DNA from: Amoebophrya sp. A120 | Taxonomy: Eukaryota > Protista > Dinoflagellata | Direction: 5' to 3' | Assembly: GCA_905178155.1 (NCBI GenBank) | Contig: CAJINV010000030.1 | Coordinates: 77,984-141,983 of the forward strand | Length of the DNA: 64,000 nt | Shown: piece by piece, positions 2,731 to 64,000 of the stretch | How the letters are laid out: each line of letters begins with the position of its first letter | How positions within the stretch are numbered: position 1 is the stretch's first letter | Program-made: the position numbers and the translations under genes | Notes under the pieces: model-generated | The model's input: the letters and a program-made list of their open reading frames with translations, nothing else | The model's database searches: none | What the model was told of the DNA's origin: nothing

Positions 2731-2767
2731 CTCTCCAGCTGCTCCCCGCCGATCCAGAAAGACAAAA

Positions 2768-5253: not shown

Positions 5254-5409
5254 TATCCTGTTCAAAAGTATCGTACTCGTAGTAATTGCAAATATGCATG
5301 ACAAATCTTCTTCCTAAGGTAAAACAGCATCACAAATTCCATTTCTCATGTTGAGGCAATTTGTATTGCGATGTATACTAGTACGATTACGATACTTTTG
5401 CAATGAATT
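5254..5409. mobile_element. Introner/MITE family A, apparently outside coding sequence
   Basis: TIRs TATCCTGTTCAAAAGTATCGTACTCGTAG / GATACTTTTGCAATGAATT; TSD CCTGC/CCTGT. Confidence 0.85.
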
Positions 5410-28400: not shown

Positions 28401-29333
28401 TAAAATAAAGACGGAATACAACTACAACGGTCACGAAAGCTGAATCCTTTTGGTGCGATAACGACAGGCATAAGCTGATCTCGCTACAAGAGGTTGACAG
28501 GAAAAAATAGAAGCAGTCATATACAAGACACAAAAGCGACTGCTTCGATGGCGATCGTTATTTTGGCTCGTATGTATGTTCTCCGTTGTATGAGGATCGT
28601 CGTATGTAAGTCTTGTCCTCGTGTCGTGTGGTCCTCGTCGCTTTAGTGAGTGCAAAAGAGTGAAGATCTTCGAAACGGTATGTGCGAACGCATTTGCGCT
28701 AGCTCCCCGGTCTTTCGATGCAGCACCAAAACTCATTGCTATTGTTCATTGATTGATTCTCTAGTGCGCGATATGAATTCTATCGACTAAAAAGAAAAGC
28801 AAAGGACTCGACAAACCAAACGCAAAATCGAGCCCGCAGAGCAGATGAATTGCGCAACCTTATCTCATCGCGTATTGCTCGAGCCGAATTTTTATCCAGC
28901 TCGCCTTCCAGCAAGTGAAAACGTAAGTATCGGCAGCGAGGAAGCATTTATCCGTTATTTCAGGCCGCAGCAGCGTCGTGCAAGAGCAGGACCGATTCGA
29001 TATTGTCAGACGACATCAAGCGAAAAGAAGAAGAACGGTTCGTTCTAGCTCAATATTTTTAGTTCGCGATGATGTTGCGATAGGACCACAAGCAATTCGT
29101 TTCAAAGCAGGAATTCAGATCCGTCATTTAAACCCTTGATGATCTGACGCATGCAACTTTACAGAATCGTACACTAACATAGCAGGGAAATGCAAAAGAT
29201 CAGCTGCCAGGCTGTTGTTCTTATTGCGAGTCTCAGCTGACCTCGACCTAGTGCCTTGCACAGCCAGAAATCACATCCACAGCACCACCTGTTAGCATCA
29301 CTACAAGCATCATCACCACCACCCTTTCTGAAA

Positions 29334-30257
29334 ATGAAAAACTTCTCGACACGCGTGTGCAAGAAGGTGTTTTCCTCCTCCTCGACGCTCGGAGGGGCCG
29401 CTCCGAACACAGCCGGGAACTCCGCCTCAGCCCGTTTTGGATTGCATGCATTTCAAGAAGCGGCAAGCGGCCGGAGCTTCAGCACAATCACGCGGCGACT
29501 CCTGCCCTCCCGCGAGACCGGAGGCAAAATGCTGATGGGCGGAACCCTGTGGGCAGCCGGGGAGGTGCTGACGCAGCTGGTCACCACCGCGCCAGGGCTG
29601 GCGACGGCAGACACAGTAGAAGACACGGATATGAAAGCGGGCGTGGCACGCAGGACGATTGGGCTGCAGAACACAAAGAACACTGCGTCCTTTAGTACTG
29701 AAGATGGTGTTGAGGAACTCGAATTGTTGCGCGACGAGGGGTCGGAACAAGAACGCACGCTCGTACACCAGGAGGAGCTCCGCCGTGAGCTGCAAAGGGG
29801 CGGGACGACCAGTACCATTTTGTCCTCGCCAGTTTCCTTCCTCCAGAACATGAACATCGACCTCACCCGCATTGGGCACTCGTTCCTCGTTGGCGGCTGT
29901 CTGTTCACCCCGTTGGCCAATTTCTGGTACGTGCGCGCGGACAAGCTTTTCCCCGTGGCTATGGGTGCGAACGTGTGGTCGGGAATTTTGAAGAAGGTGG
30001 CCTTCGACCAGTCGGTGTTCACCCTGACCGTGCTAACGACCGTGTTCTCCGCGTTTTCCCTCCTCCAGGGCAAAACGGTGCAGGACGCCTGCAAGAAGGT
30101 GGTGCAGGAGGTGCCCTCCACCTTACCGATGAACTGGGCGGTATGGGGTCCCGTGCAGGCGTGCAACTTTCTGTTGCTGCAACCCCACCAGCGGATCTAC
30201 CTCGTCAACCTAGTCACCGTTCCCTGGACGGGGTATCTCGCCTACAAATCGAGGTGA
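29334..30257 (+). CDS. Mpv17/PMP22 family membrane protein with an N-terminal targeting-like extension
   Basis: GEVLTQL, IDLTRIGHSFLVGG, KKVAFDQSVF, NWAVWGPVQACNF, YLVNLVTVPWTGYLAY; intronless. Confidence 0.92.
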   Translation: MKNFSTRVCKKVFSSSSTLGGAAPNTAGNSASARFGLHAFQEAASGRSFSTITRRLLPSRETGGKMLMGGTLWAAGEVLTQLVTTAPGLATADTVEDTDMKAGVARRTIGLQNTKNTASFSTEDGVEELELLRDEGSEQERTLVHQEELRRELQRGGTTSTILSSPVSFLQNMNIDLTRIGHSFLVGGCLFTPLANFWYVRADKLFPVAMGANVWSGILKKVAFDQSVFTLTVLTTVFSAFSLLQGKTVQDACKKVVQEVPSTLPMNWAVWGPVQACNFLLLQPHQRIYLVNLVTVPWTGYLAYKSR

Positions 30258-39040: not shown

Positions 39041-39903
39041 AGTGGGGACACGGCCAGGTGGGGACACGGCCAGGTGGGGACACGGCCAGGTGGGGACACG
39101 GCCAGGTGGGGACACGGCCAAGTGGGGACACGGCCAAGTGGGGACACGGCCAAGTGGGGACACGACGGCGGGTGGGGACACGACGGCGGGTGGGGACACG
39201 ACGGCGGGTGGGGACACGACGGCCGGCCAAGTGGGGACACGACGGTCGGCCAAGTGGGGACACGACGGCCGGCCAGGTGGGGACACGACGGCCGGCCAAG
39301 TGGGGACACGACGGCCAGCCAAGTGGGGACACGACGGCCGGCCGAGTGGGGACACGACGGCCGGCCAGGTGGGGACACGGCGGCCGGCCAAGTGGGGACA
39401 CGACGGTCGGCCAAGTGGGGACACGACGCACGGCCGGCCAAGTGGGGACACGACGGACGGCCGGCCAAGTGGGGACACGACGGCCGGCCAAGTGGGGACA
39501 CGACGGCCGGCCAAGTGGGGACACGACGGCCGGCCAAATGGGGACACGATGGCCGGCCAAGTGGGGACACGACGGCCGGCCAAGTGGGGACACGACGGCC
39601 GGCCAAATGGGGACACGATGGCCGGCCAAGTGGGGACACGACGGCCGGCCAAGTGGGGACACGACGGCCAGCCAAGTGGGGACACGACGGCCGGCCAGGT
39701 GGGGACACGACGGCCGGCCAGGTGGGGACACGACGGCTGGCCAAGTGGGGACACGGCGGCCGGCCAAGTGGGGACACGACGGCCGGCCAAGTGGGGACAC
39801 GACGGTCGGCCAAGTGGGGACACGACGGCCGAGTGGGGACACGGAGGTGGGGTCACGGAGGTGGGGACACGGAGGTGGGGTCACGGAGGTGGGGACACGG
39901 AGG
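39041..39903. repeat. G-rich composite minisatellite, core GTGGGGACAC
   Basis: Successive unit lengths of 16, 18, 23 and 14 bp, all built on GTGGGG(A/T)CAC; probably intronic. Confidence 0.95.
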
Positions 39904-40245
39904 TGGGGGCGCGAAGGCTGGTCCGAACGGAGCTGCAGAGGCAGATTTGGCCCCGGCGCCTCCGCATCTGCCGGTCAGACTTGCAGCTGCAATGGCGGGC
40001 TGGTCCGGTCTATATGCCCAGTATTTTATACTAATTTAAAAATGTTCCCTTTACATGAACTTTCTGGGAAATCCAAATGCTGAGATACGACACTCCCTGC
40101 TCGATTTTTTTACCGCTGTGGAAGTTGCATTATTTTCAATGTTCCTCGTAAGAATTGCATTTGCAGCAACCGCAGAAGCGGACAGCACTTCGGAAAAACA
40201 TTCATTTGCGCATGGCTTCCTGGTGGTTGAGCATCTCTTGGATAG

Positions 40246-42222: not shown

Positions 42223-42979
42223 TAATTTGGCATAACAGGGTCCTCGTCGCGCTCGGTGCACTTCGTACATGTAGCTCAATCTTTTGCTCAAAGTCAAAAC
42301 GAGATAGAAAATGAAGTTTTTCCATAAATAGTTTTCTCTCCGGTGACCACGGTGTTTCTGTTCATTATTAGCAACGCGAAATTGGCATGGCTGTTTTCTT
42401 GGAATAGAAGTAAAACAAATCCATGAGGCAGGACTCCCACAAATTTTCCAAATCCATGACGCAGGATTCCCACAATTTTTGCGCGATGAAAAAATTGAGA
42501 TCCAAAAATGAAATTATCGTTTGCTATGCCGGTGTTGCGGTGAACAAAAACAAAAGCACTAGTGCCGACGGTAAAAGAGGTTTGGAGTTGGACAGGCAGG
42601 ATCCCCGCTAAATCAAAGTGTATTTTGGTAGATGTCTGAATCTGGATCGGCGACTTGTGATCCAAACATATGAAAGGCGATTTTATTTTTTGTGTTTGAT
42701 TGTAGTTTCTGTTTCCACGATCATAATCTAAAAATTTCCCGCGAGTCAATCCTCTCCTGCAAAAAGCGGTGTTCAGGTCGAACTTACATCACAAGTATCA
42801 GGAATCTCCACCTCTAGAAATCCATCTGGACCACATCTACAACTAGACAGAAGATTTTCCAACTTTAGTTAATCTGTGACTTACACCACTAGGAAAAGGA
42901 AATAAAGCCGGTTTATTTCTCACATTTCTACATTTCCTCTTCTTTCCTCCGCAACAGAAAAACCACAACCCCATCGAAA

Positions 42980-43447
42980 ATGCCGTCGGTGACCTGCGAC
43001 GAAAACGTGCTGTGCGTGAAGAAGCTGAGTGGGAACGCGACGGTGCCCACCAAGGGTTCGAAGGACAGCGCCGGGTACGACCTGTCTGCCGCCCACGAGA
43101 CGGAGATTCCGGCCCAGGGGAAGGGCTTGGTGAAAACCGACTTGGCGATCAAGATGCCGGCGGGCGTGTACGGCCGCGTGGCACCCCGCAGTGGCCTGGC
43201 CCACAAGAAGCACATCGACGTCGGCGCCGGCGTGATTGACGCCGACTACCGCGGCAACGTGGGGGTCGTGCTCTTCAACCACGCCCAGGAGCCCCTGAAG
43301 GTCGAGAAGGGGGACCGCGTCGCGCAGTTGATCCTGGAGAAGTACCTCACGGTCGACGGCGTGCGCGAGTGCGAGGACCTGGACGAGACGGACCGCGGTG
43401 CGGGCGGCTTCGGCTCCACCGGCGTCTCCGCGGCCCCGCCGTCCTAA
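42980..43447 (+). CDS. DUT: Trimeric dUTP diphosphatase
   Basis: All five dUTPase motifs: [37 protein letters not shown]; intronless. Confidence 0.98.
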
Positions 43448-44887
43448 GCTGGTTTTCAGTGATACACTCGCTGGAAAAGATAAACGCAGGATGTAGTTGA
43501 CATCTTGTGCACAAAATGTCAGCGCACCACGGTGGTTTTCGATCTTCGGAAAGTTGTCGTGACAACCGACCTACTGTCAGCAAAAATGAAAATCACACGG
43601 AATCTTACGAAGAAGCAGTCAGAGAGCAGGATACAAACGGACTTGGACCTTCACACTTACGCAACGAACACGGGGGTACTTACTTTTTGTTTTCCGTTCA
43701 CGCCAATTTTTTTGTGAATCTTGCATGCGTATGAGCTTAGACAAGATGCGTTGGTTACGTCGCCTCCACTAGAAATTGCTAACGCTGAAGTTTTCATATC
43801 GATTTTCCACAACGGTGTGCATTGCATTGGGAATCCCAGATGAATATGGCGTCTGAGATAAAAGACAAAGAAAAAATTATCCACAGGTATTTTACCTTCA
43901 CTATGTATTCCAAGAATCTCCTGGAATCGTTCCTGCACCTACGCGAAGAAGACTACCACTTTCCAGATTCGTCGACCAGAATCTTCGCGAGGACCAGATG
44001 ATGATCTTTCAAGTGCAACTCTCTCTTCAAACTACGTTTTAGAAATGCCCTGCTCACAATTCTTCTCTCCGGCGACGCCACGAGCGATCTCTTCGAAAAT
44101 TCAACTTCTGAAGAAAAGACAGTGTTGTTTGCGACAGCACGGAATAACACCGGAGAAGGATTGCTGTAGAAAAGACCTTACGATGTTGACGATGATCTTG
44201 CTGTACCAGCGGAGAATCGAATAAAACAACACTTTGATACAAACGGCATGCTCTGCACGCATCTGATAACGTCAATCATGATAAAAAAAATTGGAGCTGG
44301 AATGCTACCGAGATCAAAAGGCTTGTAGTTCAAGACTCTTTACTCGGATTGTTCCTGGCGCTAATCAAACGTCTCCAGTAAATCCAACTACTGGTTTGAA
44401 TTGCAATTTCTACAAGAACTCGATGACGAAAATAAAATTTGAATTTTCGAAAACGGAAAAGCCAGCCGAGAGACAGAACCACAGAGTGCAAAGCAATTTG
44501 TGTTTCTAGAGAGAGTCCTCGTGAGCGTTTACCAAATTTTATCAACCGATTTTGCTTTCATCTCCGCAAGAGTGTAACTTTGCGACTGCATCCTGAATCA
44601 TTCAAAATGCTATTTCCATCCCGTAGAAAAAAAAATTATGCAAGAGAGAAGGAGTAGAGTCGTCCTTGCGTGTAGTGTGAGTGGAGGAAAGACCACGATA
44701 AGTACTTACTATTAGTAGGGGTAGACATCAAGAGAGAAGTTGTACAAACAAGCAAAATCAAAAAGAAGAGTTCATACAGTAAAGTTTTAGACCTAATTGT
44801 GGATCGGACGAAAGTTTTGAGTCTTGTTGTCGCCATCAATTTGTTTGGCATGTAGCATTTTTCCGGTTCGTTGCAGCAAAAGCAAAG

Positions 44888-47800
44888 ATGGCACTGCAGC
44901 AACCGAACCCACCGTGCGGGGACGACTTGGCTTTGTTGTTGTCGAAAATTGTACTGCATTTGCCGTACGACGCCAGTGCAGTGGATCCGGAATTCGCCTC
45001 CTACCTTCGCGAAAACGCATTGACGTGTGTTGTGGTCGGGAAATGGCAGACCAGCAACCTCGAGCAACTGAAAAACCACAGTCTGGCTGCGAAAGCAGCC
45101 GGCTTGGCAACGAGAACAAGTGCTGGTGGCGGCATCGATCGCAACAACCCGTTCGCGCGGGCGGGGCAAAAGGCGGGCAACGCGGATTCCACCCCCGCAG
45201 CGTCGGAAGGGGGCGTCGCGTACTACTGCAGCCGTGTGCAGTCCCGCAGCTTCGGTTTGTCCATGGTCGCGGTGAAGCAGATTTCGGGTTCCAAAACCGC
45301 CACTTCCAAGACGGAGGAGCCCGCGTACCTGGAGCGCAAGCGGCTGCAGGTGCTGCGTATCCAGTGCAAAAGTATCGTTGCAATTGCTTTTATGCATTAC
45401 AAATCTTTTTTGTAAGGCAAATCCGCATTACAAATTCAATTTGTAATGCTGAGCCAATGTGTATTGCAATTTCTACTAGTACGATACTTTGCAATGCATA
45501 CTGCGCCTCGCGTGGGAGGATGGGTTTCCGTTGGACCTGCGCGAGATCGGCGTGAACCCTTACACCAAAACCGTGTCCTTCACGTTGCGCGACCAGGCGC
45601 CCCTCAGCCGCGGTGCCTTTCCGTATGCAGTGCAAAAGTATCGTACTACTTCTACAACTCGTATAAAAATGCATTACAAATTTCCTCAGCATGAGAAAAA
45701 ACTTTGTAATGCAGATTTACCGTACCCGTAACAAAACAATTAGTAATGCATGATTGCAATACGAGTACGATACTTTTGCAATGCATATTCCGGAGCACGA
45801 GCTGAAGCGGGCCGTCCGCGCGAGCGCCCGGGAGGAACGGGTCGCGAGGAATGAGAGGGGGAACGAAACCGCGGTAGGTGTGGCAAAAGCATCGTACTCT
45901 AGTTCTAGTAGAAATTTTTACGAATACAAATTTTTCGCAGAGATGAAGAAATGCAATTTGTAATTCGGATTTGGGTAAGAAACAACAAGGTTTGGATTTG
46001 TCATGAGTACGATCCTTTTGCATTGCATACGCAGACCAGGCCTACGAAATCCTGCCGCCGAAACGCGTGGCGCCATATGACAGTGCACAACTCCCCCTCC
46101 CCCTCATTTGTAATGCAAGATCCCGAATCCTCCAGCTGCTGCCTCGTAGCACTGTGTGCATGACAAATCCTGGAAGCCCAAACAACACTACACTCCAGTG
46201 CAAATTTGTCATGCAAAACCGGCATTCTTTCTAATGCTTGCATTGCTGTTCATGCAATACAAATGAGGGGGAGGGGGAGTTGTGCACTTTTATATGCCAA
46301 GGCGGTTCTCGACGAGCTCAAGCGCCGGTGGAGGAGCGGAAGGCCGGCTGGAGGTTGACGGCCGCAAGAATCGAGTACAGCTGCAAAGTATGAAATGCAA
46401 AAGCCTCGTACTAGTATAAATTGCATGACAAATTCCCTCAGCATGAAAAATGAAATTTGTAATGCGGATTTAGGTTAGAAGGGAGATTTGTGATGCATGA
46501 TTGCGAATTACTACGAGTACGATACTTTTGCACAGGATACAAACCGAGAGTACTAGCAGTGCTCTCGAAGGTCATCTGGTTCATTCCGACGTCGACGTGC
46601 ATCTTCCCGGGCTGAACTCGACGGCTTTCCAGCAGCTTGCGTTCCCCGAACGCGGCGCCTTGTTTCTGGAATTCTACATCTTCCGACCGTCGAATAAACA
46701 ACAGGTGCTGGGCGCCACGGGCGTCTCCGGGGACGTCATCTACCACTTCAACTACACCCTGGACCTGTTCAACCTCCGGCGCCGCAGCCGCCAGAAGCTC
46801 CCCGGGGAGCTCGGTACGGTGAAAAACCCGCCACTCGCGAAGGCACCCCGGGCCACCTTCCTGGATATCAAATGCAAAAATGTCTGGGTCTGGAAACTTG
46901 TAATGCTGCGTTGGGAATAGTGAATGCTCTGTAATGCACAGGCAAGCATCAGAAATATCTGTGCTTCTTTGTGGTGCGTTTTTCGCATGACAAACTGCGT
47001 TTTTGCAGGACATGCAAAAGGGTCTCTTCTTGGACACGCATCACAAACTTTTTGGTCATGCCAGACAAGCATGACAAACTTGCATTCTTCCAGACCCAGA
47101 CATTTTTGCATTTGATACTGGACTACGGAGAGGAAAATCACGGCGACGAGCTTTGTTCCTCCCGCCCGCAGCTCTTCGTGCAGGACTGCTTTCGCGTGGA
47201 GGAGGCCCAGACCGCGCGGTGGAAAGCCAAGCCCTACCTACGACCCTACTGCGAAGTGGAGTTGGAATCTGCAGATCACAGTTTTCAAGCGCCTCGGCAG
47301 GGACAGGAAAAAGGACCGTCAGTCGCGGCCTCATCTTCGTCCTCCAGTCAGGCGGGTCGGCGTGGAGATAAGAAGAGAGTGACGACGGGTACTTCCCAAA
47401 ATTTTTCGCATTCCTGCAGCAGAGGAACACCTTCACTAGCGAAATAAAACTAGAAATGTTTATTTTGTTTTTCATATGACGGCCATGTCATTCGGTTTGG
47501 GCTTTGCTTGACGCACCATGAAGGTTTGTTTTGTTTGTACTTATTCATTCCTAAGTGTAAGTAGAACTTTGTGCAAAAGCTAAATTAACATAAAACTACA
47601 GCTACTGCTACACAACCGTTTTTTATATTCTAGGCACACCAGGGCGAACCGCAACGAACCCAGCGAGGAGACCTTCAGCCGGTAACTCGAACGAACTCAA
47701 GGTACCTGATGACGACGACGACCAGGACCTTTCGCATTACCCAAGCAACAGCCGCAAACCAGCCTTGATGCGGAGTAGTAGAACCAGTGCAGCGAGGACT

Positions 47801-50800
47801 TCGCGCCAGGCCCTGGTGAAACTCGCAAGAAAGACGGGGAGCACGGCGGACACGGTCCGTAAAAAACCTTCGGGGCGCCCTATCACCGCCTCCACGGGCC
47901 GGCACCACAAGTGCTTCCGCATGGCCTGGGCGCTGGGCCGCCCGCGCGGACTCTCCTACCACTTCGGCAACAGTCGGTCCTTCCAGAAAATGCGGTTTTG
48001 GGACCTGGTTCGTTTGAAAACGATCCAGAAAACGCGGCTGCAGCAGGAGAGCCGCGGGGGAGGTGGTGCCCCCGGAATTATTGCGACAGCGGGTGCAGGA
48101 AATGGCAGCAGACGACGCTCTGGCAGGCGGCGGAGGAGCGGCGATGAAAGCGAGCGTCGAAGCCAGAACAATGCGGAAGAACGACGTCACCACAATGAAA
48201 ACGAAAATGATTTTTTCCCGTACTACGCGCACAGAAGGCATCGGGAAGAAATGGACGCAAATGCCGTGGAGAAGCTACCGTACGACGCAAACTATCCTGG
48301 GAGAAATAGCGACTGTCGTGCTCGTCGTCTGATAGTAATTGCATGAATCTTGCATGACAGCCGTTCTTGTCTCTGTGTGTCGAATCTGCAACGCAAATTC
48401 AGTTTTTCATGATTTCTTTGTCATGCAAATCTTACTAGCACAACAGGTTTGCAAAATGCATACGAATCATCCCTACCAGAACTCGGACGTGTACGAGTCT
48501 GCGGACCAGGTGAAGAAGTACTACTACCGTGCCATATCCTCTGCAAAAGTACCGTACTCGTGATAGGTAAATTGCGATATAGTAATTTTTGCATGACAGA
48601 TTTTGATTTACTGTCATCTTACTTGTTAAATCTGCATGACAAACTCGATGTTTCGTATGCAATCATTTGTCATGCGAAGATCAAGTAGTCAGATCTCTAC
48701 TGGTGCAATACCTTTTGCAAAAATGCATACACCGGCTGGAACAACCATCTTCTCAACCCGAATTGGTTTAGCGCGTTTCAAAAAGAGGACTGGCGCGAGC
48801 GGGAGTTTTTCGTGCAGAACGCGGCGCTGGCCGACCTCGATCCGTTTGACGGAGAGCAGGAATCCGAGCCCGACTCCGTGTTCGACGCGGATGACCGGCT
48901 CCGTGTATCAAATGCAAACATCGATCTGGGTCCTCTGCAAACTTGTGATGCGAAAATGTGGATAAATGGAATAAATCGTTCCGCATGCTGCCCAGCATGA
49001 CAACGCCTTTCGTGGCCGAGAGCGCTTTCTCATAGGCAGTCTGGATCAGGTGAGTGAGACTGCGTTTCTGCATGACAAAAGAGGCTGCGACTTTTGTTGA
49101 TTTTATGCAAAAGCAAAACTACAGATTTCCCAGGAATCGGAAGCTAGCATTACAAGTTTTTCAATTTTTCAGACCCAGACATACTTGCATTGGATACCAC
49201 GAGCTGGACGACGAACTGGCGCACCTCGCCCAATATCGAATGCAAATGTGTCTGGGTCGGGAAAGAATGAGATTTGTGATGCATGCTTTCGATCATACAA
49301 ATTACCACCTGTAGAATTGTGTATGTATTTCTCAACACGCAGCAGATTTTCAGGTAGGCATGAGAAATAACCTGTCGCACCACTGCAATTATGCTGCATC
49401 GCGGGTCATGTAAGATTTGCAGCACATCTCTCATCAATCTTCCCGACCCAGACAAGTTGGCACCGCACACCCAAGAGAGCGAGGACGACGAGCCGCTGCC
49501 CCCGCCGTTCCAAGTGCGGGAAGACCGAGCGAAGACGGCGACGCGCAACTACCTGAAGCCCTTCTTCTGGTGGGCCGTGCACCGCGCGCTCGACATGGAG
49601 GCGGCCCAGGTCGTGGTGCAAAGCTGCGTGGAGCTGGTCCGGGACCAGGTTGTGGCGGAGGAGGAGGCCGACCTGGCGACCGCCGTGCTGGACGCCGTCG
49701 CGGACAAGGTGGCGCGGAACGTGCTGGACCTCGAGCACGGCACCGTCGCCGACGCCTTGGTGCAGCATGCGGTGGACCGTGCGGGCGATCCAACCATATC
49801 CTGTGCAGAAGTATCGTACTCGTATTGCAAAAATCATGCATCCCGAGTCAATCCCCATTACAAATTTTATTTCTCATGCTGAGGATGAAATTTGTATATG
49901 CATTTATACGAGTACGATACTTTTGCAGTCCATAGACCAGTGGCGGCCACGATTTCGCCTCCACCGACCAGATTCTGCAGACCGTCTACGGAAACGCGGT
50001 GCACACACTGAGCAACGAGCACAAGGTGATCGCCCGGCGCACGCTCCACCGCATCTACGACACCGTGGTAGACACACTGCAACTCAACGAGGAGCAGGAG
50101 TTCGACGGAGGACAAAAGGAACAAAGCGAACCCAACGGGGGCCACCGGAAGGAGGACCTGCTGTTTCCCAGCACCTGGGGAAACCATAAAACGCTCGGTG
50201 GAGCAGACGGGGACAGTATCTACAGCATCGACACCTCAGACCACCAGTCCATCTGCGTTGTGGGCGACCCAGGACGCCCGAAGCTGAAGTCCGAGTTCGG
50301 CCCCTTCACGATCGGGTGCAAGGGAGTTCGCGTGGTCCGGCATTATTTCTCCATGGCCGCGGGGGATCGCGACTCGAATTCGTCGTGCGTAGCACAAGAG
50401 GACGGAGAGGAAGAGGAAGACACTGATTTATTTCTCAGCGAGGACCAACTGCTAGACCGGAAATACGAGGCACAGCGGCGGCGGCAACAGCGAAGACGGG
50501 ACCGCCGAAGCGAGATTTCTGACGAGCGGGAGGTGCGCAAACAGGTGATGCGCAACGCGAAGAAGTTTCGGCGCGAGCTGCAGAAGCGGCTCCAGTTCCT
50601 CGGGGACGCGCACGGACTCGATATGGCGTTCTCAACTGTTACATTCTCAACTGTTACACGGATTTGCTATGCAGAATTGCCATCAGCCTCCACACGATCA
50701 AGGTGCTTAGCATGACAAATCCTCGAAGGGCTAAGCAGCATGATAATCCGTTCCAAATTTGTAATGCAAAACGCGCAATCTTTCCGCTTTCACATTTGCT

Positions 50801-53197
50801 GTTCTTGCATCACACATTCATGTAACAGTTGAGGATGTAACGTTTGAGAACGCCATACTCGAGCTGCGAAGCTTCGAGCACGACATCTTCGCGTCGGAGT
50901 ACGGTGTTTTGAACCCGCACCGGCAGCGCCGCGGTCCTTCCGTCAAAGAGCTGGTTTGGTCCCAGGCGGTGAGGAGAGCGAGCAGTGCCGGGGCGGGGAC
51001 CGGCGGAAGACGAGTGCGAACCAACTACCCTGATGATGAACCACAAGACGAGGGTCGTATTGTGGATGGACAGAAAAACTATCGTGCAACAAACGATCGT
51101 GGCGAAGGAAAACATGGTGCTCGTGCTCCACCACGACACGGTGCGGGGAATAAGCCCGAGGTGAGGAACAAAAGCGGCTTGCAAGATGAAGTTTCTCCGG
51201 TCGACGTGCAGGGGCCGATCTACGTCACGCACGCTGCGGACGCGGTCCCGCACGAGCAGGAAGAGAAACAGGGGAAGCGGGGCAGCAATATCCTGAGTAA
51301 AAACAACGTCCCCTCTACCCCAAGGCTGTGCATCATGAAGGTAGCAAATCTGCATCATGAAGGTAGGTGGTTCTTATGCGGAGCCCCATGAGAATTGTTT
51401 TCTAGTCGACGCGCGTCGAAAATTGTGATGCTCCAATGATCAGCATAATATCTATAGATCTTTGTTGATGTGATGCTGTTGTTGTTGAAGTAGAAGCGAA
51501 TAACAGGATTGCACTACGAAGCGGCCACAGAACTTGTCATGCACAACAACCAAAGCTTGTTGATTTGTGTAGCAGATTTCCCGTCCTGACTACAAGGTGG
51601 GGACGTTTTCCCACGGGATAAGCAAGCGCGTGAACAAGCCTCCGCGTTCGGCGGGCCCGGCTGGGCGGTACGATGAAGACACGGGCCGCCCGCGGAGCTT
51701 CAGTAGCTGCTACGACCTTATGGATTGCAAAAATGTCTAGGTGTCCGGAAGAGTTAGAACTTGCATTTCTTGTTTGGCATTCCTGCTAAATCTGTGTTGC
51801 ATGTTTGTGGCAGCTGCGCGGATTTTGTGTCAATGAAATGCAAAAAAGGAGTACTTTGTAATGCGGACGCGCGCTACTCACGCATGAAATAGAAAAAGCG
51901 CTGAAATAAATATTTGGCATGCGTGGCTGCACTAGGAAGACCAATTTTGGCCATTCAGCATCACAAGTTCATTCCAGACTCAGACCACATATTTGTGATG
52001 CATAGACCTGGTAGTACAGCAACACCGCGTGCGCGCGGCGGACGCCGAGGGAAGGCAAGGACCGGCGTATCCTGTGCAAAAGTATCGCACTCGTAGTATT
52101 TGCAATCATGCATTACAAATCTTTTGCTTAAGGTTAAGGTGAATCCGCCGGATTACAAATTTTATTTCTCATGCTGGGGAAATTTTAATTTGTAATGCAA
52201 TTTATACTCAGTACGATACTTTTGCACTGCATAGGGCGGGAATTGCAGCAACTCGTGGTGGTCCAACGAGGAATTTTCAACCAGGCCTGGCGTTCAACCC
52301 GGATGAATTTCGCATCCTCCGAGCTAGGAATTGCAAAAGTATAAAGTAGTACCAAAGCATCGCACTGAAATTGTACTTGTAAAATTGATTATAAAGATAG
52401 TCAATCAGTTGCATCTTCTATAGTGCAAGACTTGTACTACAAGAAGTTCTTGCGTAAAAAAAAGCAATTTTTTGTCAACTACATGCCAGATCAACTAGAA
52501 GGATAGATCTGTCACGACGCATCATGCCTGGTGCGATGATCTTCACTACGAGTGTGCGATATTTTTGCAAAGGATACGAGCCGGGAGGGACCAACTCAAG
52601 ATGTATCGGGAAGAGGAGGAGCAGGCGAAGGAAAGGGCGAAAAACCTCTGTAGAAGTGCCGCGTCAAAAAAAGCCGCGGGTGGCCGGAAGACGGCGTCCA
52701 GTACTTGTTCGTTTGATAGATAGTTTCATATTTAAATCAGCTTAAAAATCGTAGAGTTGATTTGCACTGCTGGACCTGATCCTGATAGTACTGTGTATTC
52801 ATTTTTCACTACGCACGATCTTCAATCAATTGTGTTTCTTGCTTGCTACGGGGCGCAGAGACCCCAGACATAGCGGTGACAGTACATGAGGTCATCGTAC
52901 GTAGCAAGTTGTACTTCTTCTACAGAACTCAAGAAAATGCGCCGTATACATCAAAGTACCGAATCAGATACAACAACAAAACCAGGTTACTACGACGACC
53001 GGAAAACCTACCAGTGGGATGCCCCGGTGGACGTGTTTGGGCGCGAGAAAGCGGAGATTCTGGCACAGTACAAAGAAAACGAGAAAGCCAAAACTCGGTC
53101 CGCCGGCGGTCGTGCGGGTGGGAGTGCGGTGGCAAGCGGTTCTGCGTGGAAACTGGATCTCGGCGAGGTCGATTGGATGGCGGCACTGCAGATGTAG
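44888..53197 (+). CDS. Large hypothetical protein interrupted by 16 introners and two GT-AG introns (47356-47633, 52701-52925)
   Basis: Removing each TIR element plus one TSD copy gives a single continuous frame from MALQQPNPP to ...DWMAALQM*. No domain recognised, and the start is uncertain. Confidence 0.8.
45358..45500. mobile_element. Introner family A
   Basis: TATCCAGTGCAAAAGTATCGT...ACGATACTTTGCAATGCATA; perfect TSD CTGCG. Confidence 0.93.
45624..45787. mobile_element. Introner family A (opposite internal orientation)
   Basis: TATGCAGTGCAAAAGTATCGTACT...AGTACGATACTTTTGCAATGCATA; perfect TSD TTCCG. Confidence 0.95.
45875..46029. mobile_element. Introner family A
   Basis: TAGGTGTGGCAAAAGCATCGTACTC...GAGTACGATCCTTTTGCATTGCATA; TSD CGCGG/CGCAG. 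Confidence 0.88.
46076..46294. mobile_element. Introner family C (C5TC5 TIR)
   Basis: ~42-bp TIR TATGACAGTGCACAACTCCCCCTCCCCCTCATTTGTAATGCA and its complement; TSD CGCCA/TGCCA. Confidence 0.92.
46389..46539. mobile_element. Introner family A (opposite internal orientation)
   Basis: TATGAAATGCAAAAGCCTCGTACT...GAGTACGATACTTTTGCACAGGATA; TSD CAAAG/CAAAC. Confidence 0.9.
46866..47117. mobile_element. Introner family B
   Basis: Perfect 30-bp TIR TATCAAATGCAAAAATGTCTGGGTCTGGAA; perfect TSD CTGGA. Confidence 0.96.
47258..47684 (+). repeat. Dispersed exon-intron-exon duplication (partner at 54522-54893)
   Basis: Shared GGAGTTGGA..CACAGTTT.CAAGCGCCTC.GCAGGGACA..., AATTTTTCGCATTCCTGCA, GTGCAAAAGCTAAA, ACCGCAACGAACCCAGCGA. 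Confidence 0.85.
48293..48462. mobile_element. Degenerate introner family A
   Basis: TATCCTGGGAGAAA...TTTGCAAAATGCATA; TSD CAAAC/CGAAT; frame restored (YDANHPYQ). Confidence 0.75.
48535..48729. mobile_element. Introner family A
   Basis: TATCCTCTGCAAAAGTACCGTACTCG...TTTTGCAAAAATGCATA; eroded TSD TGCCA/CACCG; frame restored. Confidence 0.82.
48906..49196. mobile_element. Introner family B
   Basis: TATCAAATGCAAAC..TCTGGGTC...GACCCAGACATACTTGCATTGGATA; TSD CCGTG/CCACG. Confidence 0.87.
49234..49469. mobile_element. Introner family B
   Basis: TATCGAATGCAAATGTGTCTGGGTCGGGAA...TTCCCGACCCAGACA; perfect TSD CCCAA; right terminus eroded. Confidence 0.88.
49797..49934. mobile_element. Introner family A
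   Basis: TATCCTGTGCAGAAGTATCGTACTCGTA...TACGAGTACGATACTTTTGCAGTCCATA; TSD AACCA/GACCA. Confidence 0.93.
50622..50857. mobile_element. Introner family D
   Basis: 37-bp TIR TATGGCGTTCTCAACTGTTACATTCTCAACTGTTACA containing an internal 15-bp tandem; perfect TSD CTCGA. Confidence 0.95.
51289..51620. mobile_element. Introner family E
   Basis: TATCCTGAGTAAAAACAACGTCCCC / GGGGACGTTTTCCCACGGGATA; perfect TSD AGCAA. Confidence 0.87.
51719..52004. mobile_element. Introner family B (opposite orientation to the 14124 and 46866 copies)
   Basis: TATGGATTGCAAAAATGTCTAGG...CAGCATCACAAGTTCATTCCAGAC..GATGCATA; perfect TSD GACCT. Confidence 0.88.
52068..52233. mobile_element. Introner family A
   Basis: TATCCTGTGCAAAAGTATCGCACTCG...GTACGATACTTTTGCACTGCATA; TSD CGGCG/GGGCG. 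Confidence 0.94.
52325..52576. mobile_element. Introner family A
   Basis: TAGGAATTGCAAAAGTAT...GATATTTTTGCAAAGGATA; perfect TSD CGAGC; gives ILRAGRDQLKMY. Confidence 0.88.
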
Positions 53198-54521
53198 TAA
53201 GCGAAAGCTGCTGGAAGTGGTAATGGCGTAGCTGTTATTTTTGGACAAAAGAAGGTCTGTTGCGACGCTCGTGTGAATGAAAGAAACAGAGTCTCTTGAC
53301 GTTTTGTATTTTTTCTCCGTGAAAAAGAGAAAAAGGAAAAGCAGGAGTGCCTTGCTGAATAGAATACTTAAAAACACGAACTGCACATCACAAAATGAAC
53401 AGTCTTTTGTGGGGAATATCTCAACTGAATGAGTTCTGTAAATATCGGCTGGCATCGGTGAATCAAGATCGAGTAGTTGCGCAAGACAAATTTGATCAAA
53501 GAAGAAAAAGATCGCGACCTCCAAGAAACTCACTCGAGGCCAATATGATTCAAGTAGGTTTTCAACCTCGTGCCAATGCTCTCCCTCGGGATCGCTTGTC
53601 TTTTTTTTTAACCGTGACGATATTAACCTTCGTGATTGCATAAAGTCCGAGGAAGTAGTACTGAGGGATCAAGTGCGAGAGGGACATTACATTTTAGGCT
53701 TACTACACGCATGTTTTTTTCATTTTTTCTCAAGCAAGTCTTTTGTAGGAAATTTAATGGAAAAATGAAAATCCCGCGCCGAACGCAGTCACTTAATAAG
53801 GGCGAAGGGAGGACAACGAATATGCTGTTCATTGCCCCTACAACTTGAGGGAAAAGTGGGAAAATTGATTTCGACCTGAATCGATAGTCTTTTGGTTTTA
53901 AAATGTATGTTAGGGCAGCAGACGGCTGTCCGGGCAGCAGTCTGCAGTAGTCTTTCGAGTTGTCTGGGGTCGTTCAGGGCTAAGGCTGCAAGAGCGGAAT
54001 TTTCTACTGTCCTCGCCCTGGTAGTCGTTGTAGTAGGGTATTCAGAAGCAATAGGAAATTGCTCCTGTGCAGACCGTCGTCGTACCGGTACCGAGAGCGC
54101 CGCACAGGTGTACCTGAACCGCTCTCCTAGTTCCACCACGGCATCATCATTTCGTTCCATCGAACTTCTTCGAGGTCAGTCAACGACGCCGACCAACCTA
54201 GCCTCAGTCAACGACGTTACCACTAGGGTATCAGGGCAGGCTATTCCTGCCGCGCGTCGGAGGAGGGAGATGCGCCAAGCCCCGCTCGAACTAATCATCA
54301 TCATTTGAGGTGGGCGGAACACAGTATTTTTGTATATAGTGCGTTCACGACTTATGGCAGATTGATAGTACGTGTACGAGTTGCTATGTTGATGCTCGCA
54401 ACATTTTCTTCTCTTTGTACTTTCGAACAGACTGGTATAATATTCCTCGTCAACGAACCGGTTCAGATTGAGCACCAAAGGTAGTACTTCTATCTTCTTG
54501 CCCGCGGCCTTACTGGGAAGG

Positions 54522-58400: not shown

Positions 58401-60368
58401 CCTGAAGTACTGTTACGTCGGGGGCCGACGACGGCTCAATCTTGTCGGGAAAAAGTACGACACGAGAGGTGCCACCTCCGCTCGCTGGAGCTATCGCGAC
58501 AATCGCTCTAAAAGGCGGGATCGTCGCTTTTCGAGACCTCCGACAGCACTCATTTTCAGGACAGAGGATGGTGTCGAGCCTGCACTGTCCCTCTTCGTGC
58601 GCGTCCAGGATGAAAAGTTGTGCAACATCACTCTGTACTCCCCGCCGCTCCCGAAAAAGGGGAAAAAGCTCGCAGTGAAGATGTTGTCAACACTGTGCAC
58701 CAACCACGGCGGGACGAGTTCCACCGCAACTGGCCCCTGCTCCAAACAGAAACTGCAATGCATAGCCGCGTTGTACGTGCTCGATGTCGGCGCGCAGTTT
58801 TGGGATCGCGAGAAGCAAGTAGTCACCCTGCCGACGTATGCTAGGTTTGCGTCCTTTGGGTCAAAAGAGGAGCTGGTGTACGCGTTGCGGGCCGTCCTAG
58901 GCGTCAACAAAGGGCTCGAAGGGTACCAAGAGCGTTTCAACTTAGGCAGCTTCAAGAGTGCCAAATTCCTCGCCGAGGGGGGAAGCGAATTGAGCCCAGC
59001 CGACAGGGAGCGACAACCCGAAAACTATACGGAAGCCCTCCGCCTGCGGCGCGGCGACGAGCTAGCGGTTCTTGGCGTTTGCGGAACGAAGGAGGAAGTG
59101 GAAAAGAAGTACGGGCCGCTGCGGGAATGGGACCTGGGACACTGCACCGACCTCTCCTGCCTGTACATGTGGACGCTGCTCGACCCGATGTACGACGTGT
59201 TCGCGCAGAACGACATGGATTATCCCGCAGTGAGATTTCGCCCTCTGTTAGAAGAATGTACTGCATGTCCTACATTCTCAACGAAAGACTGATCGTTATT
59301 TACGATATGTTTTGTAAGGTATGTGAAGACTGTATTGCAAGTGAGTAGAGCACCAGGACCAGGAACAGCAGAGCAAGATGATACAACAAAGCACATTTCA
59401 TCCCGAAGAGCAGCAGCTGCTGCGAGTCCCGAAGCGTGTATTTGTAATGCTGCTCATCTTCCTTCCAGCTTTTGTCGGACATCCTCAGGACAGAAAAGAC
59501 GACTTTGTTGAAGGCGATGTTTCTCTCTTGTTTGATGATTGGAATTTAGGAGTACTGCATGCCCAATCGCCAGGGAGGCTGTACGTGTGGGCGCCGATAT
59601 GCTTCATGTCGTATGACAAGAATCCGGACATCTCCTGCTGGAACACGTCGAAGGTGACAAACATGTACCGCTGCTTCTGGAATTGGGACGATTTCAATCA
59701 ACCCTTGACGGCTACGCAAGAGGACGAAAGTGTCGTCACGATGACGACGGTCATCATCGCTGGGTCATGCAAGAAGAAGAAAATATCTTCTGTCATAGTC
59801 ATCTTTTTTTGTCCCAGTCTTCAATTGCTCTCTTTGTATACGTAAGACCATCAAGCGACTTGTTCTTCACATGGTTTTTTAGAAGTATGGTTTTTTAGAA
59901 GTGCCAAAGAAGATGGGTTCAACGGAAAAATTTCTGCAGATGATGATGATGATGATGATGATAATGATGACGACGATTTTCGACAGCATAATCTGGTGGG
60001 ACACCAGCTCTGTAACCAGCATGAACGAGATGTTCTATGGCGCAATCAAGTTCGATCAGCCGTTGGGCCACTTTGACCTCAGTAACTTGGGCAGTTTGTT
60101 CGCCGAATCCGCGAGCCCTTGCCCCGCCGTGGGGCACTACAACGACGGCGGTTTGCAGGACATGCTTCGTGGTGCAGCGAATTTCAAGCAGTGGGAATCC
60201 TTGCGTTCGTGGAGCCCGGACGCGAACAAACTCGGCCAACAAATTCCCGTCGAACCCGAAGCACGGTGTTCGTTTTTGTTCGATCTCGTCAACAAGGAGA
60301 AGAACGCCGTTGAGAAGATGGGCTGCGGCGCCTACCTCATGCAAAGGGTACCCGTTGACTTGCTGTAA
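55477..60368 (+). CDS. Large protein with an Ala/Ser/Thr/Pro-rich N-terminus and C-terminal DUF285 (BspA-like 26-residue) repeats
   Basis: YGPLREWDLGHCTDLS, DISCWNTSKVTNMYRCFWNWDDFNQPL, WDTSSVTSMNEMFYGAIKFDQPL. Three introners are removed in frame into ORF 56842. The start and the last introns are uncertain. Confidence 0.75.
55525..55724. mobile_element. Introner family A
   Basis: TATGCATCGCAAAAGTATCG...GATACTTTTGCAATGTATA; TSD ACGAG/ATGAG. Confidence 0.88.
56254..56550. mobile_element. Introner family B
   Basis: TATGCATCGCAAAT..TCTGGGTGTGGAA...CACACCCGGACATAGTTGCATTTGATA; TSD GCTAT/ATTAT. Confidence 0.8.
56590..56776. mobile_element. Introner family A
   Basis: TATCCTATGCAAAATCATCGTACTCG...CGAGTGCGATAATTTTGTACTTGATA; perfect TSD ACGGA. 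Confidence 0.92.
59939..59976. repeat. (GAT)n microsatellite, probably intronic
   Basis: Direct trinucleotide run. Confidence 0.9.
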
Positions 60369-60666: not shown

Positions 60667-60927
60667 TATCAGATGCGAATATATATGGGTCTGGAAACTT
60701 GTGATGCTAAAGTGTGGATGACAGGGGAAACATTTCCGAAACCGAATGCAGCCAAGCATGACAATTCTCCAGAACCCTTTCGCATGCGACGCTGCGTTTT
60801 TCATTTTCTATGACAAGAGAGGCTGAAAATTTCCTTCGTCATGCAATACAGATTTCAGATTCAGAGGAATGCAAAGCCAGCATCACAAGTTCGAACTTTC
60901 CAGGCCCAGACATCGTTGCGATGAGTA
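60667..60927. mobile_element. Family B element downstream of a stop codon (UTR or intergenic)
   Basis: TATCAGATGCGAA..GGGTCTGGAAACTTGTGATGC...TTTCCAGGCCCAGACAT; no clear TSD. Confidence 0.7.
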
Positions 60928-62361: not shown

Positions 62362-64000
62362 ATGGAGGATGAATTTCTGCCGCATTCTTCATGTTCATCT
62401 GCAAGGCACTATAACCTCTTCGCACCCCGTGTCCGAGACAGTCGAGCTTTCCGAAAAATGCGCAAGATGCAGAATCGGGTCTCGCAGCATCCTCGTCCAT
62501 TCCGAACCTCCTATGGATATGGAATGTAAATAAATGAAGAGATTGGAAGAATGCATAGCTTTGTCATGCATCTCGCGGACCACAACCACCACACACATGA
62601 GCAGGAATGCACACAGAACCATGACAGATTTTGCGATACCTTCCTCAACCACATGCCTATCCTGCATGAGACATCCACCTTTTTCCTAGCAAAAGGCGGG
62701 CAGCTTTTTTTGGCGTACACGCAATACAGATTAATTGATCTGGGACCAGGGTTATTAAAAGAGCTTAAGGCAAGACTACAACAGATTTTTTTTATTTTTT
62801 GTGGTTGGGCGTAGCGGGCGGGCCTCCCCTACAAACACAGATCCGGCTAGAATTGGATCCCGGTTGTATTGTGCATGTCCCTGCAATTGAAGGGCGGAAG
62901 GCTCATAGCATACCACACCCTACCGCTACCACCGAGACTTGCATGACAAGCTGCAATCTTCCAGGCTCAGACATATTTGCAAGCTATAATGGGCGCGACT
63001 TCACGACAGATGAGGACAATGTGATGATCTCTCGAAGTTTTTTCGATTCCGTCCTGGGCCCGCTCCTCCGGGCCCTCGCCTCCACAGAATCGCAGCGAGT
63101 AGAAACTTTCGAGAAGCTCGGCATTGCAGCGCAGGAACACATGATCAGAAAGCGAGGAGTAATTAAAAAACAGCAGCAAAACAACCAGGACAATAAGGCG
63201 GATGACGAGGATAGCAAGGTCGCTGCACAGCAGCTCCTAATTGAAGAACACTTCGCTGACCTGTTCGGGTTCGGCCATAGTTTGGACGAGATTGCGAAGT
63301 GCGGCAGCGACGTGATGCTTTGCAAAGGACTGCATGTCTTCATGCTGCCGGACGTCAAGGAAGTGCGCGAGAAAATCCAGCAGCAAGCCGCCAGCCTGGG
63401 GTCTCCCTTCGTCGATGGGGAGCACAATACCGACCACGAGCACGCTGCTGCCGTGCTGGCAAGACTCGGCGAAGTGCGTGATTTGTACGACCTCATCGAA
63501 GACTTTGGAAATTTGGCGGTCGACCTCAAGATTTACCAGGAGTGTTTGGAGGACCAACTCGAGGAAATGGAGGGCTTCGACGACCCTGAGGGTTTGGAGC
63601 CGCCGTGGAGTGGCCAGGGGAGGCCTCGCAGACAGGAATCTTTGGCGGACATCAGACATTGGACCCGTCTTGGGCTTCGTTCACTACCGGAGAAGGCCCC
63701 CACCGCCTCCTTGTTGCCAGCAGAAGCCTCGCAGCGTGAAGTTTCTCGGAACCGCAAACTGCTCAGTCCATTGGGAGTCGAGTCCATTCCTTTGATCGCG
63801 TTCAACGTCGTAGACCTCGCCGACAACACGATTGCGGAGGGCAGGGCAGACATAGCAGCAAAGCACTTGGCGCATAAAAAACAGCAGGACATAAAGATGT
63901 TTTTCGATCTGCTGCGAAAATGCAACGAGCGGAGGAACGACACGGATGCATTTCACATCAGCGGCTTCGGACCAGAGTGTCCGCTTGTTGGCATGCTCCC
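62362..64000 (+). CDS. Hypothetical protein, partial (runs off the window end)
   Basis: MEDEFLPH...RTSYG joins RDFTTDEDNV... after introner removal, and the frame stays open to 64000. Confidence 0.65.
62518..62988. mobile_element. Long degenerate introner (B-like)
   Basis: TATGGAATGTAAATA...CTTCCAGGCTCAGACATATTTGCAAGCTATA; TSD ATGGA/ATGGG; frame restored. Confidence 0.72.

What the first reader, a model, noticed from the sequence alone, without database searches (positions are those of the whole stretch)
44888..53197. One gene threaded by 16 TIR/TSD introners from five families
Seen: 16 elements in ~7.2 kb, leaving exons as short as ~32-41 nt. Removing each element plus one 5-bp repeat yields one uninterrupted protein frame. 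Across the window all 24 coding copies obey this rule and 11 have perfect TSDs. Most lack usable GT-AG ends. Established: non-canonical introns with inverted and direct repeats have been reported in Amoebophrya genomes, so the class is known, but to my knowledge the excision machinery and mobilising enzyme are unresolved. Inference: a MITE-derived intron system removed by structure- or protein-guided splicing.
Basis: partly seen in the sequence, partly recalled or inferred. Interest (0 to 1): 0.9.

Follow-up and report, generated by a model that had tools for sequence, protein, structure and literature searches.

The report
Sixteen transposon-born introns in one gene
A gene of the marine parasite Amoebophrya is interrupted by 16 small transposon-like elements that lack normal splice signals yet are missing from its transcripts, likely removed by a modified splicing machine; this is a clean example of an already published kind of intron.

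Summary
Real, but already known. Sixteen TAT...ATA inverted-repeat elements (138-332 nt, 5-bp flanking repeats, 8 perfect) lie in 45358-52576. Two transcript-type contigs match the model to the base in length, while DNA-type contigs keep the elements. So RNA-level removal is supported, and pseudogene or bulk DNA excision is not. The elements fit the A120 introners of Farhat 2021; Gozashti 2025 shows another A120 gene with 16. Added here: in a second assembly 230 of 366 copies have a perfect 5-bp repeat (0-7 at 3, 4 or 6-10 bp). The cut falls inside the repeat, likely 1 nt before the element. Both orientations are spliced. No G or AG is favoured at the cuts, and two spliced copies have no predicted terminal hairpin. 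Best guess: a relaxed spliceosome guided by the element ends, with spread by an integrase-type transposase (not found). The scan noted similar introns in other genomes. Interest 0.3.

The parts
44888..53197 (+). Host gene, ATG to stop: 19 coding exons, 1437 aa, no Pfam family
   Evidence: Spliced model identical to deposited protein P0003; Pfam blank; transcript-type contigs run from 44778 to 53388
45358..45500 (.). E1, family a, 143 nt, repeat CTGCG/CTGCG
   Evidence: left boundary seen in RNA-type contig, removal by length sum
45624..45787 (.). E2, family a (opposite orientation to E1), 164 nt, TTCCG/TTCCG
   Evidence: removal by length sum
45875..46029 (.). E3, family a, 155 nt, CGCGG/CGCAG, starts TAG; a same-length GT-AG alternative (45880-46039) exists
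   Evidence: removal by length sum only
46076..46294 (.). E4, family c, 219 nt, CGCCA/TGCCA
   Evidence: removal by length sum
46389..46539 (.). E5, family a, 151 nt, CAAAG/CAAAC; mRNA keeps repeat position 5 from the right copy
   Evidence: (piece starts at 46540, 0 mismatches)
46866..47117 (.). E6, family b, 252 nt, CTGGA/CTGGA, 30-bp perfect TIR
   Evidence: junction seen in RNA-type contigs X1 and X4
47389..47633 (+). Canonical GT-AG intron 1, 245 nt
   Evidence: junction seen in X1 and X4
48293..48462 (.). E8, decayed TIR, 170 nt, CAAAC/CGAAT; no predicted terminal hairpin
   Evidence: contig ends at 48291 and 48465 fit a mosaic repeat
48535..48729 (.). E9, decayed TIR, 195 nt, TGCCA/CACCG; no predicted terminal hairpin
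   Evidence: junction lies in a block 16/20 identical to P0004; length sum
48906..49196 (.). E10, family b, 291 nt, CCGTG/CCACG
   Evidence: length sum
49234..49469 (.). E11, family b, 236 nt, CCCAA/CCCAA, ends ACA
   Evidence: right boundary seen
49797..49934 (.). E12, family a, 138 nt, AACCA/GACCA; mRNA keeps position 1 from the left copy
   Evidence: junction 49792 to 49936 seen in X1
50622..50857 (.). E13, family d, 236 nt, CTCGA/CTCGA
   Evidence: junction seen in X1 and X4; block 18/20 identical to P0004
51289..51620 (.). E14, family e, 332 nt, AGCAA/AGCAA
   Evidence: left boundary seen
51719..52004 (.). E15, family b-like, 286 nt, GACCT/GACCT
   Evidence: length sum
52068..52233 (.). 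E16, family a, 166 nt, CGGCG/GGGCG
   Evidence: length sum
52325..52576 (.). E17, family a-like, 252 nt, CGAGC/CGAGC, starts TAG
   Evidence: length sum
52701..52985 (+). Canonical GT-AG intron 2, 285 nt
   Evidence: right boundary and length in X1 and X4

Best explanation
These are the published A120-type introner elements of Amoebophrya: short non-coding elements with inverted ends and a 5-bp flanking repeat, absent from the transcript, which were likely inserted by a cut-and-paste transposase and are likely removed by a relaxed spliceosome guided to the element ends. Step 1 (repeat shown, enzyme inferred): an integrase-type DDE transposase acting in trans inserts the element with a 5-bp staggered cut, with little target preference and in either orientation. 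Step 2 (shown): the element stays in DNA, and the mRNA loses element + 5 nt, so the protein is unchanged. Step 3 (partly shown): the cut lies inside the duplicated 5-mer, after position 3 or 4. If after 4 (inferred), each intron reads N-TAT...ATA-NNNN, so the element supplies the +2 U and +3 A of a donor whatever the target, and the 3' cut is set by a fixed 4-nt distance from the element end rather than by AG. Step 4 (inferred, untested): a factor that reads the shared end sequence (TAT, then an A-tract at 11-14) delivers both ends to the U2/U5/U6 core in place of U1 and AG recognition; the hairpin may help but does not seem required.
For: Model equals deposited protein, 0 differences in 1437 aa. 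Contig X1-1 is 2155 nt observed and predicted. The 2462-nt contig X1-2 fits only with a start at 48465, just past the mismatch in the E8 repeat. DNA-type run X5 keeps the elements. Second assembly: perfect 5-bp repeat in 230 of 366; frame continuous under the +5 rule in 121 of 166, against one third by chance. Register k (left-copy bases kept): RNA gives k>=2 (E8), k<=4 (E5, E8), k>=1 (E12); the deposited protein adds k>=3 (E10); conservation with P0004 gives 2-4 (E9). [quoted passage not shown] Both canonical introns here start GTACTT, sharing +2 T and +3 A. Farhat reports nearly all spliceosomal proteins present and U1 undetected. Family a is spliced in both orientations in this transcript. 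Gozashti labels one A120 family 'Ginger, 5-bp TSD, TA/TA termini'.
Against: No spliceosomal polarity was found: 5' and 3' TIRs are equally conserved at all 28 positions (p >= 0.12, n = 205). The +1 base is free (A 63, G 62, C 40, T 39) and AG is not enriched at the 3' cut. A branch-point-like motif at TIR positions 17-19 is no better kept at the 3' end and is not shared by all families. In 14 of 16 elements both ends are predicted to be locked in a stem, a poor substrate for snRNA pairing. k = 3 versus 4 was not resolved from RNA, and Table S4 may reflect aligner preference for GT, AT and CT. No transposase was found. The RNA-type runs are RNA only by the tool's guess and by their pattern, and may not be independent of the deposited annotation.
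Confidence: 0.5

Rival explanations
1. A dedicated non-spliceosomal endonuclease and ligase reads the element ends (sequence, hairpin or both), cuts at fixed offsets and rejoins the exons, as has been suggested for euglenid nonconventional introns.
For: No G at +1, no AG at the 3' end, full 5'/3' symmetry and both orientations used. U1 undetected. Euglenid introns with TIRs are released as circles rather than lariats (review).
Against: The likely register gives +2 U and +3 A like the canonical donors of the same gene. The spliceosome is nearly complete. Fritillaria MITE-derived introns and other dinoflagellate introners are handled by relaxed spliceosomes. No candidate enzyme was identified.
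Confidence: 0.27
2. The RNA hairpin formed by the inverted ends is the main guide: it brings the cut sites together and either machinery measures from the base of the stem (Farhat's drawing and the first reader's 'structure-guided' option).
For: 14 of 16 elements are predicted to pair their ends (mean probability 0.62-1.00 at positions 8-24), against 0.00 for both canonical introns.
Against: E8 and E9 have pairing probability 0.00 yet are removed exactly. G-U versus A-C mismatches on the transcribed strand are 147:145 (n = 197), so there is no sign of selection for RNA pairing; the test is weak for young elements. The outer 3-7 bp are often unpaired.
Confidence: 0.17
3. The elements are excised from DNA in some nuclei or life stage, like ciliate IESs, and transcripts come from the excised copy.
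For: TA ends and exact loss of element plus one repeat resemble DNA excision (own knowledge). Contigs drop rare variants, and only the best 15 of 1055 joints were shown.
Against: DNA-type contigs run through E8, E9, E11, E15 and E17 at depth 40-48, like their flanks. The contigs lacking the elements also lack both GT-AG introns and the intergenic DNA. The mosaic repeat is not what simple recombination between repeats must give, though it can.
Confidence: 0.04
4. The gene is a pseudogene, or is spliced at nearby GT-AG sites unrelated to the element ends.
For: In-frame GT-AG alternatives exist within about 20 nt for 12 of 16 elements; one (E3) has the same length as the model, and my RNA evidence cannot exclude it.
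Confidence: 0.02

Closest known systems
Introner elements (IEs) among the non-canonical introns of Amoebophrya sp. A120 (Farhat et al. 2021, PMC7789003)
   Same: Same organism. Inverted repeats start TAT + 7 nt + at least three A; 3-5 nt direct repeats overlap the boundaries; no GT-AG; RNA-supported; 29,850 copies in 1954 families reported.
   Different: Nothing in kind. The paper gives variable repeat length and variable splice position. My data show one repeat length (5 bp) for these families and are consistent with one fixed register, and two spliced copies lack the predicted hairpin.
Amoebophrya A120 introner families in Gozashti et al. 2025 (PMC12130899), including family 38 labelled Ginger with 5-bp TSD and TA/TA termini
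   Same: Many TIR introners per gene (their Fig. 2D gene lists 16 from 7 families); TA/TA termini and 5-bp TSD noted for family 38.
   Different: Their gene is another one (21 kb span). They assign A120 introners to several transposon orders, whereas the families here share one end motif, one subterminal motif and one TSD length, which points to a single mobilising enzyme (inference).
Ginger2/TDD integrase-type DNA transposons (Bao et al. 2010, PMC2836005)
   Same: TIRs; TDD-4 and TDD-5 make 5-bp TSDs.
   Different: Ginger termini are TGTNR, here TAT(C/G); other Gingers make 4-bp TSDs; no transposase found here.
Introner-like elements of Polarella and Symbiodinium (bioRxiv 10.1101/2020.10.14.339549)
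   Same: TSD-flanked DNA-transposon introns, some in both orientations, with splice sites spanning the TSD-element boundary.
   Different: They recruit G-starting donors and AG acceptors from the target; here neither is selected.
Fritillaria borealis MITE-derived non-canonical introns and euglenid nonconventional introns (as reviewed in PMC11282704)
   Same: TIR and TSD at non-GT-AG introns.
   Different: Fritillaria has preferred ends (AG-AC, AG-AT) and a shown spliceosomal route; euglenid introns rely on a conserved stem and leave as circles. The route is unknown here.

Membership tests
Amoebophrya A120 introner elements (Farhat 2021) | Host is Amoebophrya A120 | tested here: met
   Spliced model identical to a protein that its source names Amoebophrya sp. 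A120
Amoebophrya A120 introner elements (Farhat 2021) | Inverted repeat starting TAT, seven variable nt, then at least three A | tested here: met
   TAT at the left end of 14 of 16 (TAG in 2) and the right end of 15 of 16; A at positions 11-13 in 92-96% of 205 copies; shifted or decayed in E4, E8, E9 and E13
Amoebophrya A120 introner elements (Farhat 2021) | Direct repeat of 3-5 nt overlapping the exon-intron boundaries | tested here: met
   5-bp repeats, cut inside them
Amoebophrya A120 introner elements (Farhat 2021) | Non-GT-AG ends, removed from RNA | tested here: met
   0 of 16 with GT/GC-AG at an equivalent cut; absent from transcript-type contigs
Amoebophrya A120 introner elements (Farhat 2021) | Repeated in families across the genome | tested here: met
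   Up to 93% identical full-length copies in a second assembly; many different flanks on the same ends in X5
MITE (non-autonomous TIR DNA transposon) | Short, non-coding, TIRs, fixed-length TSD | tested here: met
   138-332 nt; 230 of 366 perfect 5-bp TSD
MITE (non-autonomous TIR DNA transposon) | Cognate autonomous element with the same TIRs and a transposase | tested here: inconclusive
   None in about 359 kb of loci plus the window; longest TIR-bounded copy 972 nt, with no recognisable ORF; whole genome not held
MITE (non-autonomous TIR DNA transposon) | Empty site in a sister strain | not tested
   No orthologous DNA fetched; protein P0004 aligns without gaps at 12 of 18 junctions, which is indirect
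Ginger1/Ginger2-TDD | TGTNR termini | tested here: not met
   TAT in 97-99% of 205 ends against TGTNR
Ginger1/Ginger2-TDD | 4-bp TSD (5 bp in TDD-4 and TDD-5) | tested here: inconclusive
   5 bp fits TDD only
Ginger1/Ginger2-TDD | Gypsy-integrase-like DDE transposase | not testable with these tools
   No autonomous copy in hand
U2 spliceosomal intron | GT (GC) donor and AG acceptor | tested here: not met
   (15 of 205 could be read GT/GC-AG at any equivalent cut)
U2 spliceosomal intron | Branch point and lariat intermediate | tested here: inconclusive
   No 3'-specific motif conservation; lariats cannot be seen with these data
U12 spliceosomal intron | RTATCCTT donor, branch site and U11/U12 snRNAs | tested here: not met
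   Only some copies read NTATCC at the likely cut, others NTATG, NTATCA or NTAGG; minor snRNAs reported absent; U12 consensus recalled
Ciliate-type IES (DNA excision) | Absent from somatic DNA | tested here: not met
   Present in DNA-type contigs at flank depth; rare or stage-specific excision not excluded

The most novel reading that the evidence does not exclude
Amoebophrya has a dedicated, non-spliceosomal RNA excision system that reads a transposon's end sequence, works in either orientation, needs neither splice dinucleotides nor a stable hairpin, and cuts 1 nt before and 4 nt after the element so that any insertion by one 5-bp integrase-type transposase is undone at RNA level. This would be a transposon-specific splicing machine, perhaps derived from the mobilising protein.
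Probability: 0.2. Interest if true: 0.9.

Novelty: already known. Interest (0 to 1): 0.3.

Why it matters
The locus itself adds an example to a published system. The open question behind it is real: how a eukaryote with no detected U1 removes tens of thousands of introns without GT-AG. This gene is a compact test substrate, with 16 elements of five end types in both orientations, eight with mismatched repeats that report the cut position, two with no predicted hairpin, and two canonical introns as internal controls. The fixed 5-bp repeat and shared end motif suggest one mobilising enzyme, which narrows the search for it. The register also matters for annotation, because aligners can slide these junctions to spurious GT, AG or AC ends.

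Tried and rejected
Whole-genome search: no genome is held for this window. A closer look at the small exons by laying RNA-type runs was not obtained, so k = 3 versus 4 and the E3 junction stay open. No listed holder is on record as RNA. Branch-point-in-the-TIR idea: no 5'/3' asymmetry (nearest-neighbour identity 24.9 versus 24.8 of 26), rejected as unsupported. Selection for G at +1 or AG at the 3' cut: not seen. G-U wobble test for RNA pairing: 147:145. A cut after repeat position 1, which would give AG/AC-rich acceptors: excluded at E8, E9 and E10. U12-type reading of NTATCC: fits only some copies. Autonomous element: five TIR-bounded copies of 457-972 nt are short elements with internal cargo; 83 of 95 exact family-b ends pair within 1.1 kb, 10 of the other 12 lie near a locus edge, and 9 frames inside the last two have no Pfam hit; none of 36 window frames hit a transposase or integrase. 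TIR in viral contigs: 0. Rfam on the window: 0. Host protein: no Pfam; Atlas hits at 0.75 to C2-like clusters are below the level that counts. Earlier notes on this genome: none.
Full report
Observation. Reading 43500-54500 and scanning for inverted ends gave 16 AT-rich elements of 138-332 nt (GC 0.33-0.47) between 45358 and 52576. They run from TAT (TAG in E3 and E17) to ATA (ACA in E11) and are flanked directly by a 5-bp direct repeat: 8 perfect, 5 with one mismatch, 2 with two and 1 with three. Exons between them are as short as 32 and 41 nt. Removing each element plus 5 nt, and a GT-AG intron at 47389-47633, opens a frame from the ATG at 44888 for 1374 codons. Of the other removal lengths (0-10) only 8, the same frame class, does comparably. 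A second GT-AG intron at 52701-52985 completes a 1437-aa frame ending at 53197. Elsewhere in the window I delimited 7 more copies in coding context, 23 in all and 11 with perfect repeats, plus three that look non-coding or decayed.

Identity. A search with one exon, among proteins of 455-2000 aa, found 2 hits among 2520 candidates: P0003, named by its source as an Amoebophrya sp. A120 protein, and P0004, 44% identical. My spliced model differs from P0003 at 0 of 1437 residues. Against P0004, 12 of 18 junctions have no gap within five residues, and E9 and E13 lie in blocks 16/20 and 18/20 identical. Neither protein has a Pfam family.

RNA versus DNA. I laid 4 of the 10 listed runs. In X1 and X4 (RNA by the tool's guess; no depth on intergenic DNA, and both canonical introns missing) the junctions of E6, E13 and canonical intron 1 are seen directly in both runs, and that of E12 in X1. 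One boundary is seen for E1, E5, E8, E11, E14 and canonical intron 2. The small exons were not displayed, but lengths test them. The X1 contig from 44778 to 48291 is 2155 nt, as predicted. The 2462-nt contig ending at 53388 fits only with a start at 48465, the base after the mismatch in the E8 repeat. For one X4 contig the start has two solutions, one of which would keep 16 nt of E2. In X5 (kind not on record; even cover of introns and intergenic DNA) contigs run through E8, E9, E11, E15 and E17 at depth 40-48. The raw-read RNA run X8 did not cover the gene. These runs may not be independent of the deposited annotation, and contigs hide rare variants.

Where the cut falls. Eight repeats are imperfect and report the cut. 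With k = the number of left-copy bases kept, RNA-type contigs give k>=1 (E12), k<=4 (E5) and 2-4 (E8; both runs end at 48291). The deposited protein adds k>=3 (E10), and conservation with P0004 gives 2-4 (E9). One register of 3 or 4 fits all; variable registers are not excluded. At k = 4 every intron begins N-T-A (A 7, G 6, C 2, T 1 of 16) and ends in arbitrary target bases. Farhat's Table S4 lists nine predominant A120 end pairs, all beginning NT, and the text puts four repeat bases upstream of the 5' end; this favours k = 4, but aligner preference could contribute. None of the 16 has GT-AG or GC-AG at an equivalent cut. Twelve have an in-frame GT-AG alternative nearby, only one of equal length (E3), which my data cannot exclude.

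A second assembly. An exact scan for one family's 24-nt end found nothing in viral contigs (a 25-nt version) and 147 stretches in metagenome contigs (145 loci, all named JACKZZ; about 380 estimated in the collection). They share elements, up to 93% identical, but no long exonic match with the window appeared. Merged to 131 stretches (358,681 nt), they held 366 elements defined by their ends alone. 230 have a perfect 5-bp flanking repeat, against 36 at 2 bp, 7 at 3 bp and 0-2 at 4 and 6-10 bp; 88 have 2 or fewer of 5 matches and may be mis-paired. With a codon model trained on the window, the flanking frames are continuous under the +5 rule in 121 of the 166 copies (of 277) that had a strand call and 60-nt flanks. 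For 205 stranded copies with repeats of 4/5 or better, the 5' and 3' ends are equally conserved at all 28 positions (p >= 0.12), G at repeat position 5 is 30%, like background, and AG is not enriched. Every family occurs in both orientations (137 assigned, 68 not), G-U and A-C mismatches between the arms are 147:145, and 194 of 205 carry the subterminal motif GCAT(G/T/C)ACAA. That motif has 42 of its 55 window hits in 22 elements covering 4877 of 64000 nt. The sample is biased towards one family with an intact end, and young elements give these tests little power.

Structure. At 20 C, 14 of 16 elements are predicted to pair their ends; E8 and E9 are not (probability 0.00), yet they are removed exactly. 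A hairpin is therefore common but, on prediction, not required.

Mobiliser. None was found: five TIR-bounded copies of 457-972 nt carry non-coding cargo, and frames inside unpaired ends and across the window have no transposase or integrase Pfam hit. This covers well under 1% of a genome. A single TSD length and shared end motifs across families suggest one enzyme (inference). A 5-bp TSD fits integrase-type TDD elements, but the TAT ends do not fit Ginger's TGTNR.

What is known. Farhat et al. 2021 (PMC7789003; I saw the abstract, sections 10, 11, 12 and 16, passages, and supplement passages with legends S19-S25 and Tables S4, S5, S7; no figures) describe A120 introners with inverted repeats starting TAT + 7 nt + at least three A, 3-5 nt direct repeats, 29,850 copies, RNA support, U1 undetected and no transposase in A120. 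Gozashti et al. 2025 (PMC12130899; passages, section 6, supplement file 8 part 15 and its Ginger rows, file 9; files 13 and 14 not searched) report tens of introners in single A120 genes, list a different gene with 16 from 7 families, and label family 38 'Ginger, 5-bp TSD, TA/TA termini'. The review PMC11282704 (passages, section 6) covers Fritillaria, euglenids and the missing U1. The Polarella preprint (passages) shows introners that recruit G donors and AG acceptors. PMC13326754 gave one passage and does not mention Amoebophrya; PMC2836005 was read in passages; PMC6839031 was seen as a listing only. Five searches found no paper that resolves the splicing route or fixes the register; subscription journals and unseen figures and supplements may do so. 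Earlier notes of this scan describe similar introns in other genomes; I did not test them.

Verdict. It is a member of a published class in the strain where the class was described, so novelty is low. The refinements (strict 5-bp repeat, mosaic cut, orientation-blind, no dinucleotide selection, hairpin apparently dispensable) sharpen an open mechanistic question without answering it. I put a relaxed, end-guided spliceosome at 0.5, a separate nuclease and ligase at 0.27 and hairpin-led guidance at 0.17. Interest 0.3.

Noticed in passing
window 1-4092: Compound GC-rich satellite block: 29-bp arrays (1-514, 3329-3991), 28 copies of a 54-bp unit at 97% match (1206-2731) and short palindromic 30-40 bp arrays (2766-2983); its long open frames have no Pfam hit.
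   Followed up: partly
window 5254-5409, 60667-60927, about 62520-62987, 12654-12754: Element copies or remnants outside clear coding context, with decayed ends; 5254-5409 is a family a copy with repeat CCTGC/CCTGT, possibly in a UTR.
   Followed up: partly
window 33055-33226: Coding copy whose repeats match at only 2 of 5 (GTGGT/CCAGT) while the +5 removal gives the best frame; a further reporter of the cut position.
   Followed up: partly
window 39042-39908: 16-, 23- and 14/28-bp tandem arrays sharing a GTGGGGACACGG core, with open frames on both strands.
   Followed up: no
window 12782-14122, 29241-30254, 42893-43444, 59345-60365: Neighbouring genes: AMP-binding domain (next to element 14124), Mpv17/PMP22, dUTPase, DUF285 repeats.
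   Followed up: no
window 44888-46860 (P0003 aa 1-430): The conserved N-terminal part gives weak Atlas look-alikes to C2-type domains (Aida_C2, RPGR1_C; score 0.75, lead only).
   Followed up: partly
L052:3001-3972, L054 about 2529-3024, L018:3314-3770, L032:571-1051, L033 about 3315-3945: Ordinary elements that have taken up 180-700 nt of internal cargo (one an A-rich tandem array) and keep both ends and a perfect 5-bp repeat.
   Followed up: partly
loci L001-L145: Mild orientation skew relative to transcription in family b (44 versus 25) and family c (13 versus 5); among 20 low-symmetry copies the 3' end more often reads TATCAA and the 5' end TAT(G/C)C. Small numbers.
   Followed up: partly
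window 51258, 51265: RNA-type and DNA-type contigs agree on letters that differ from the window here, with two one-base gaps, so the window may carry a local assembly error or another allele.
   Followed up: no
window 47389 and 52701: Both canonical introns start GTACTT; the second has an A/C-rich 3' end with no pyrimidine tract.
   Followed up: no
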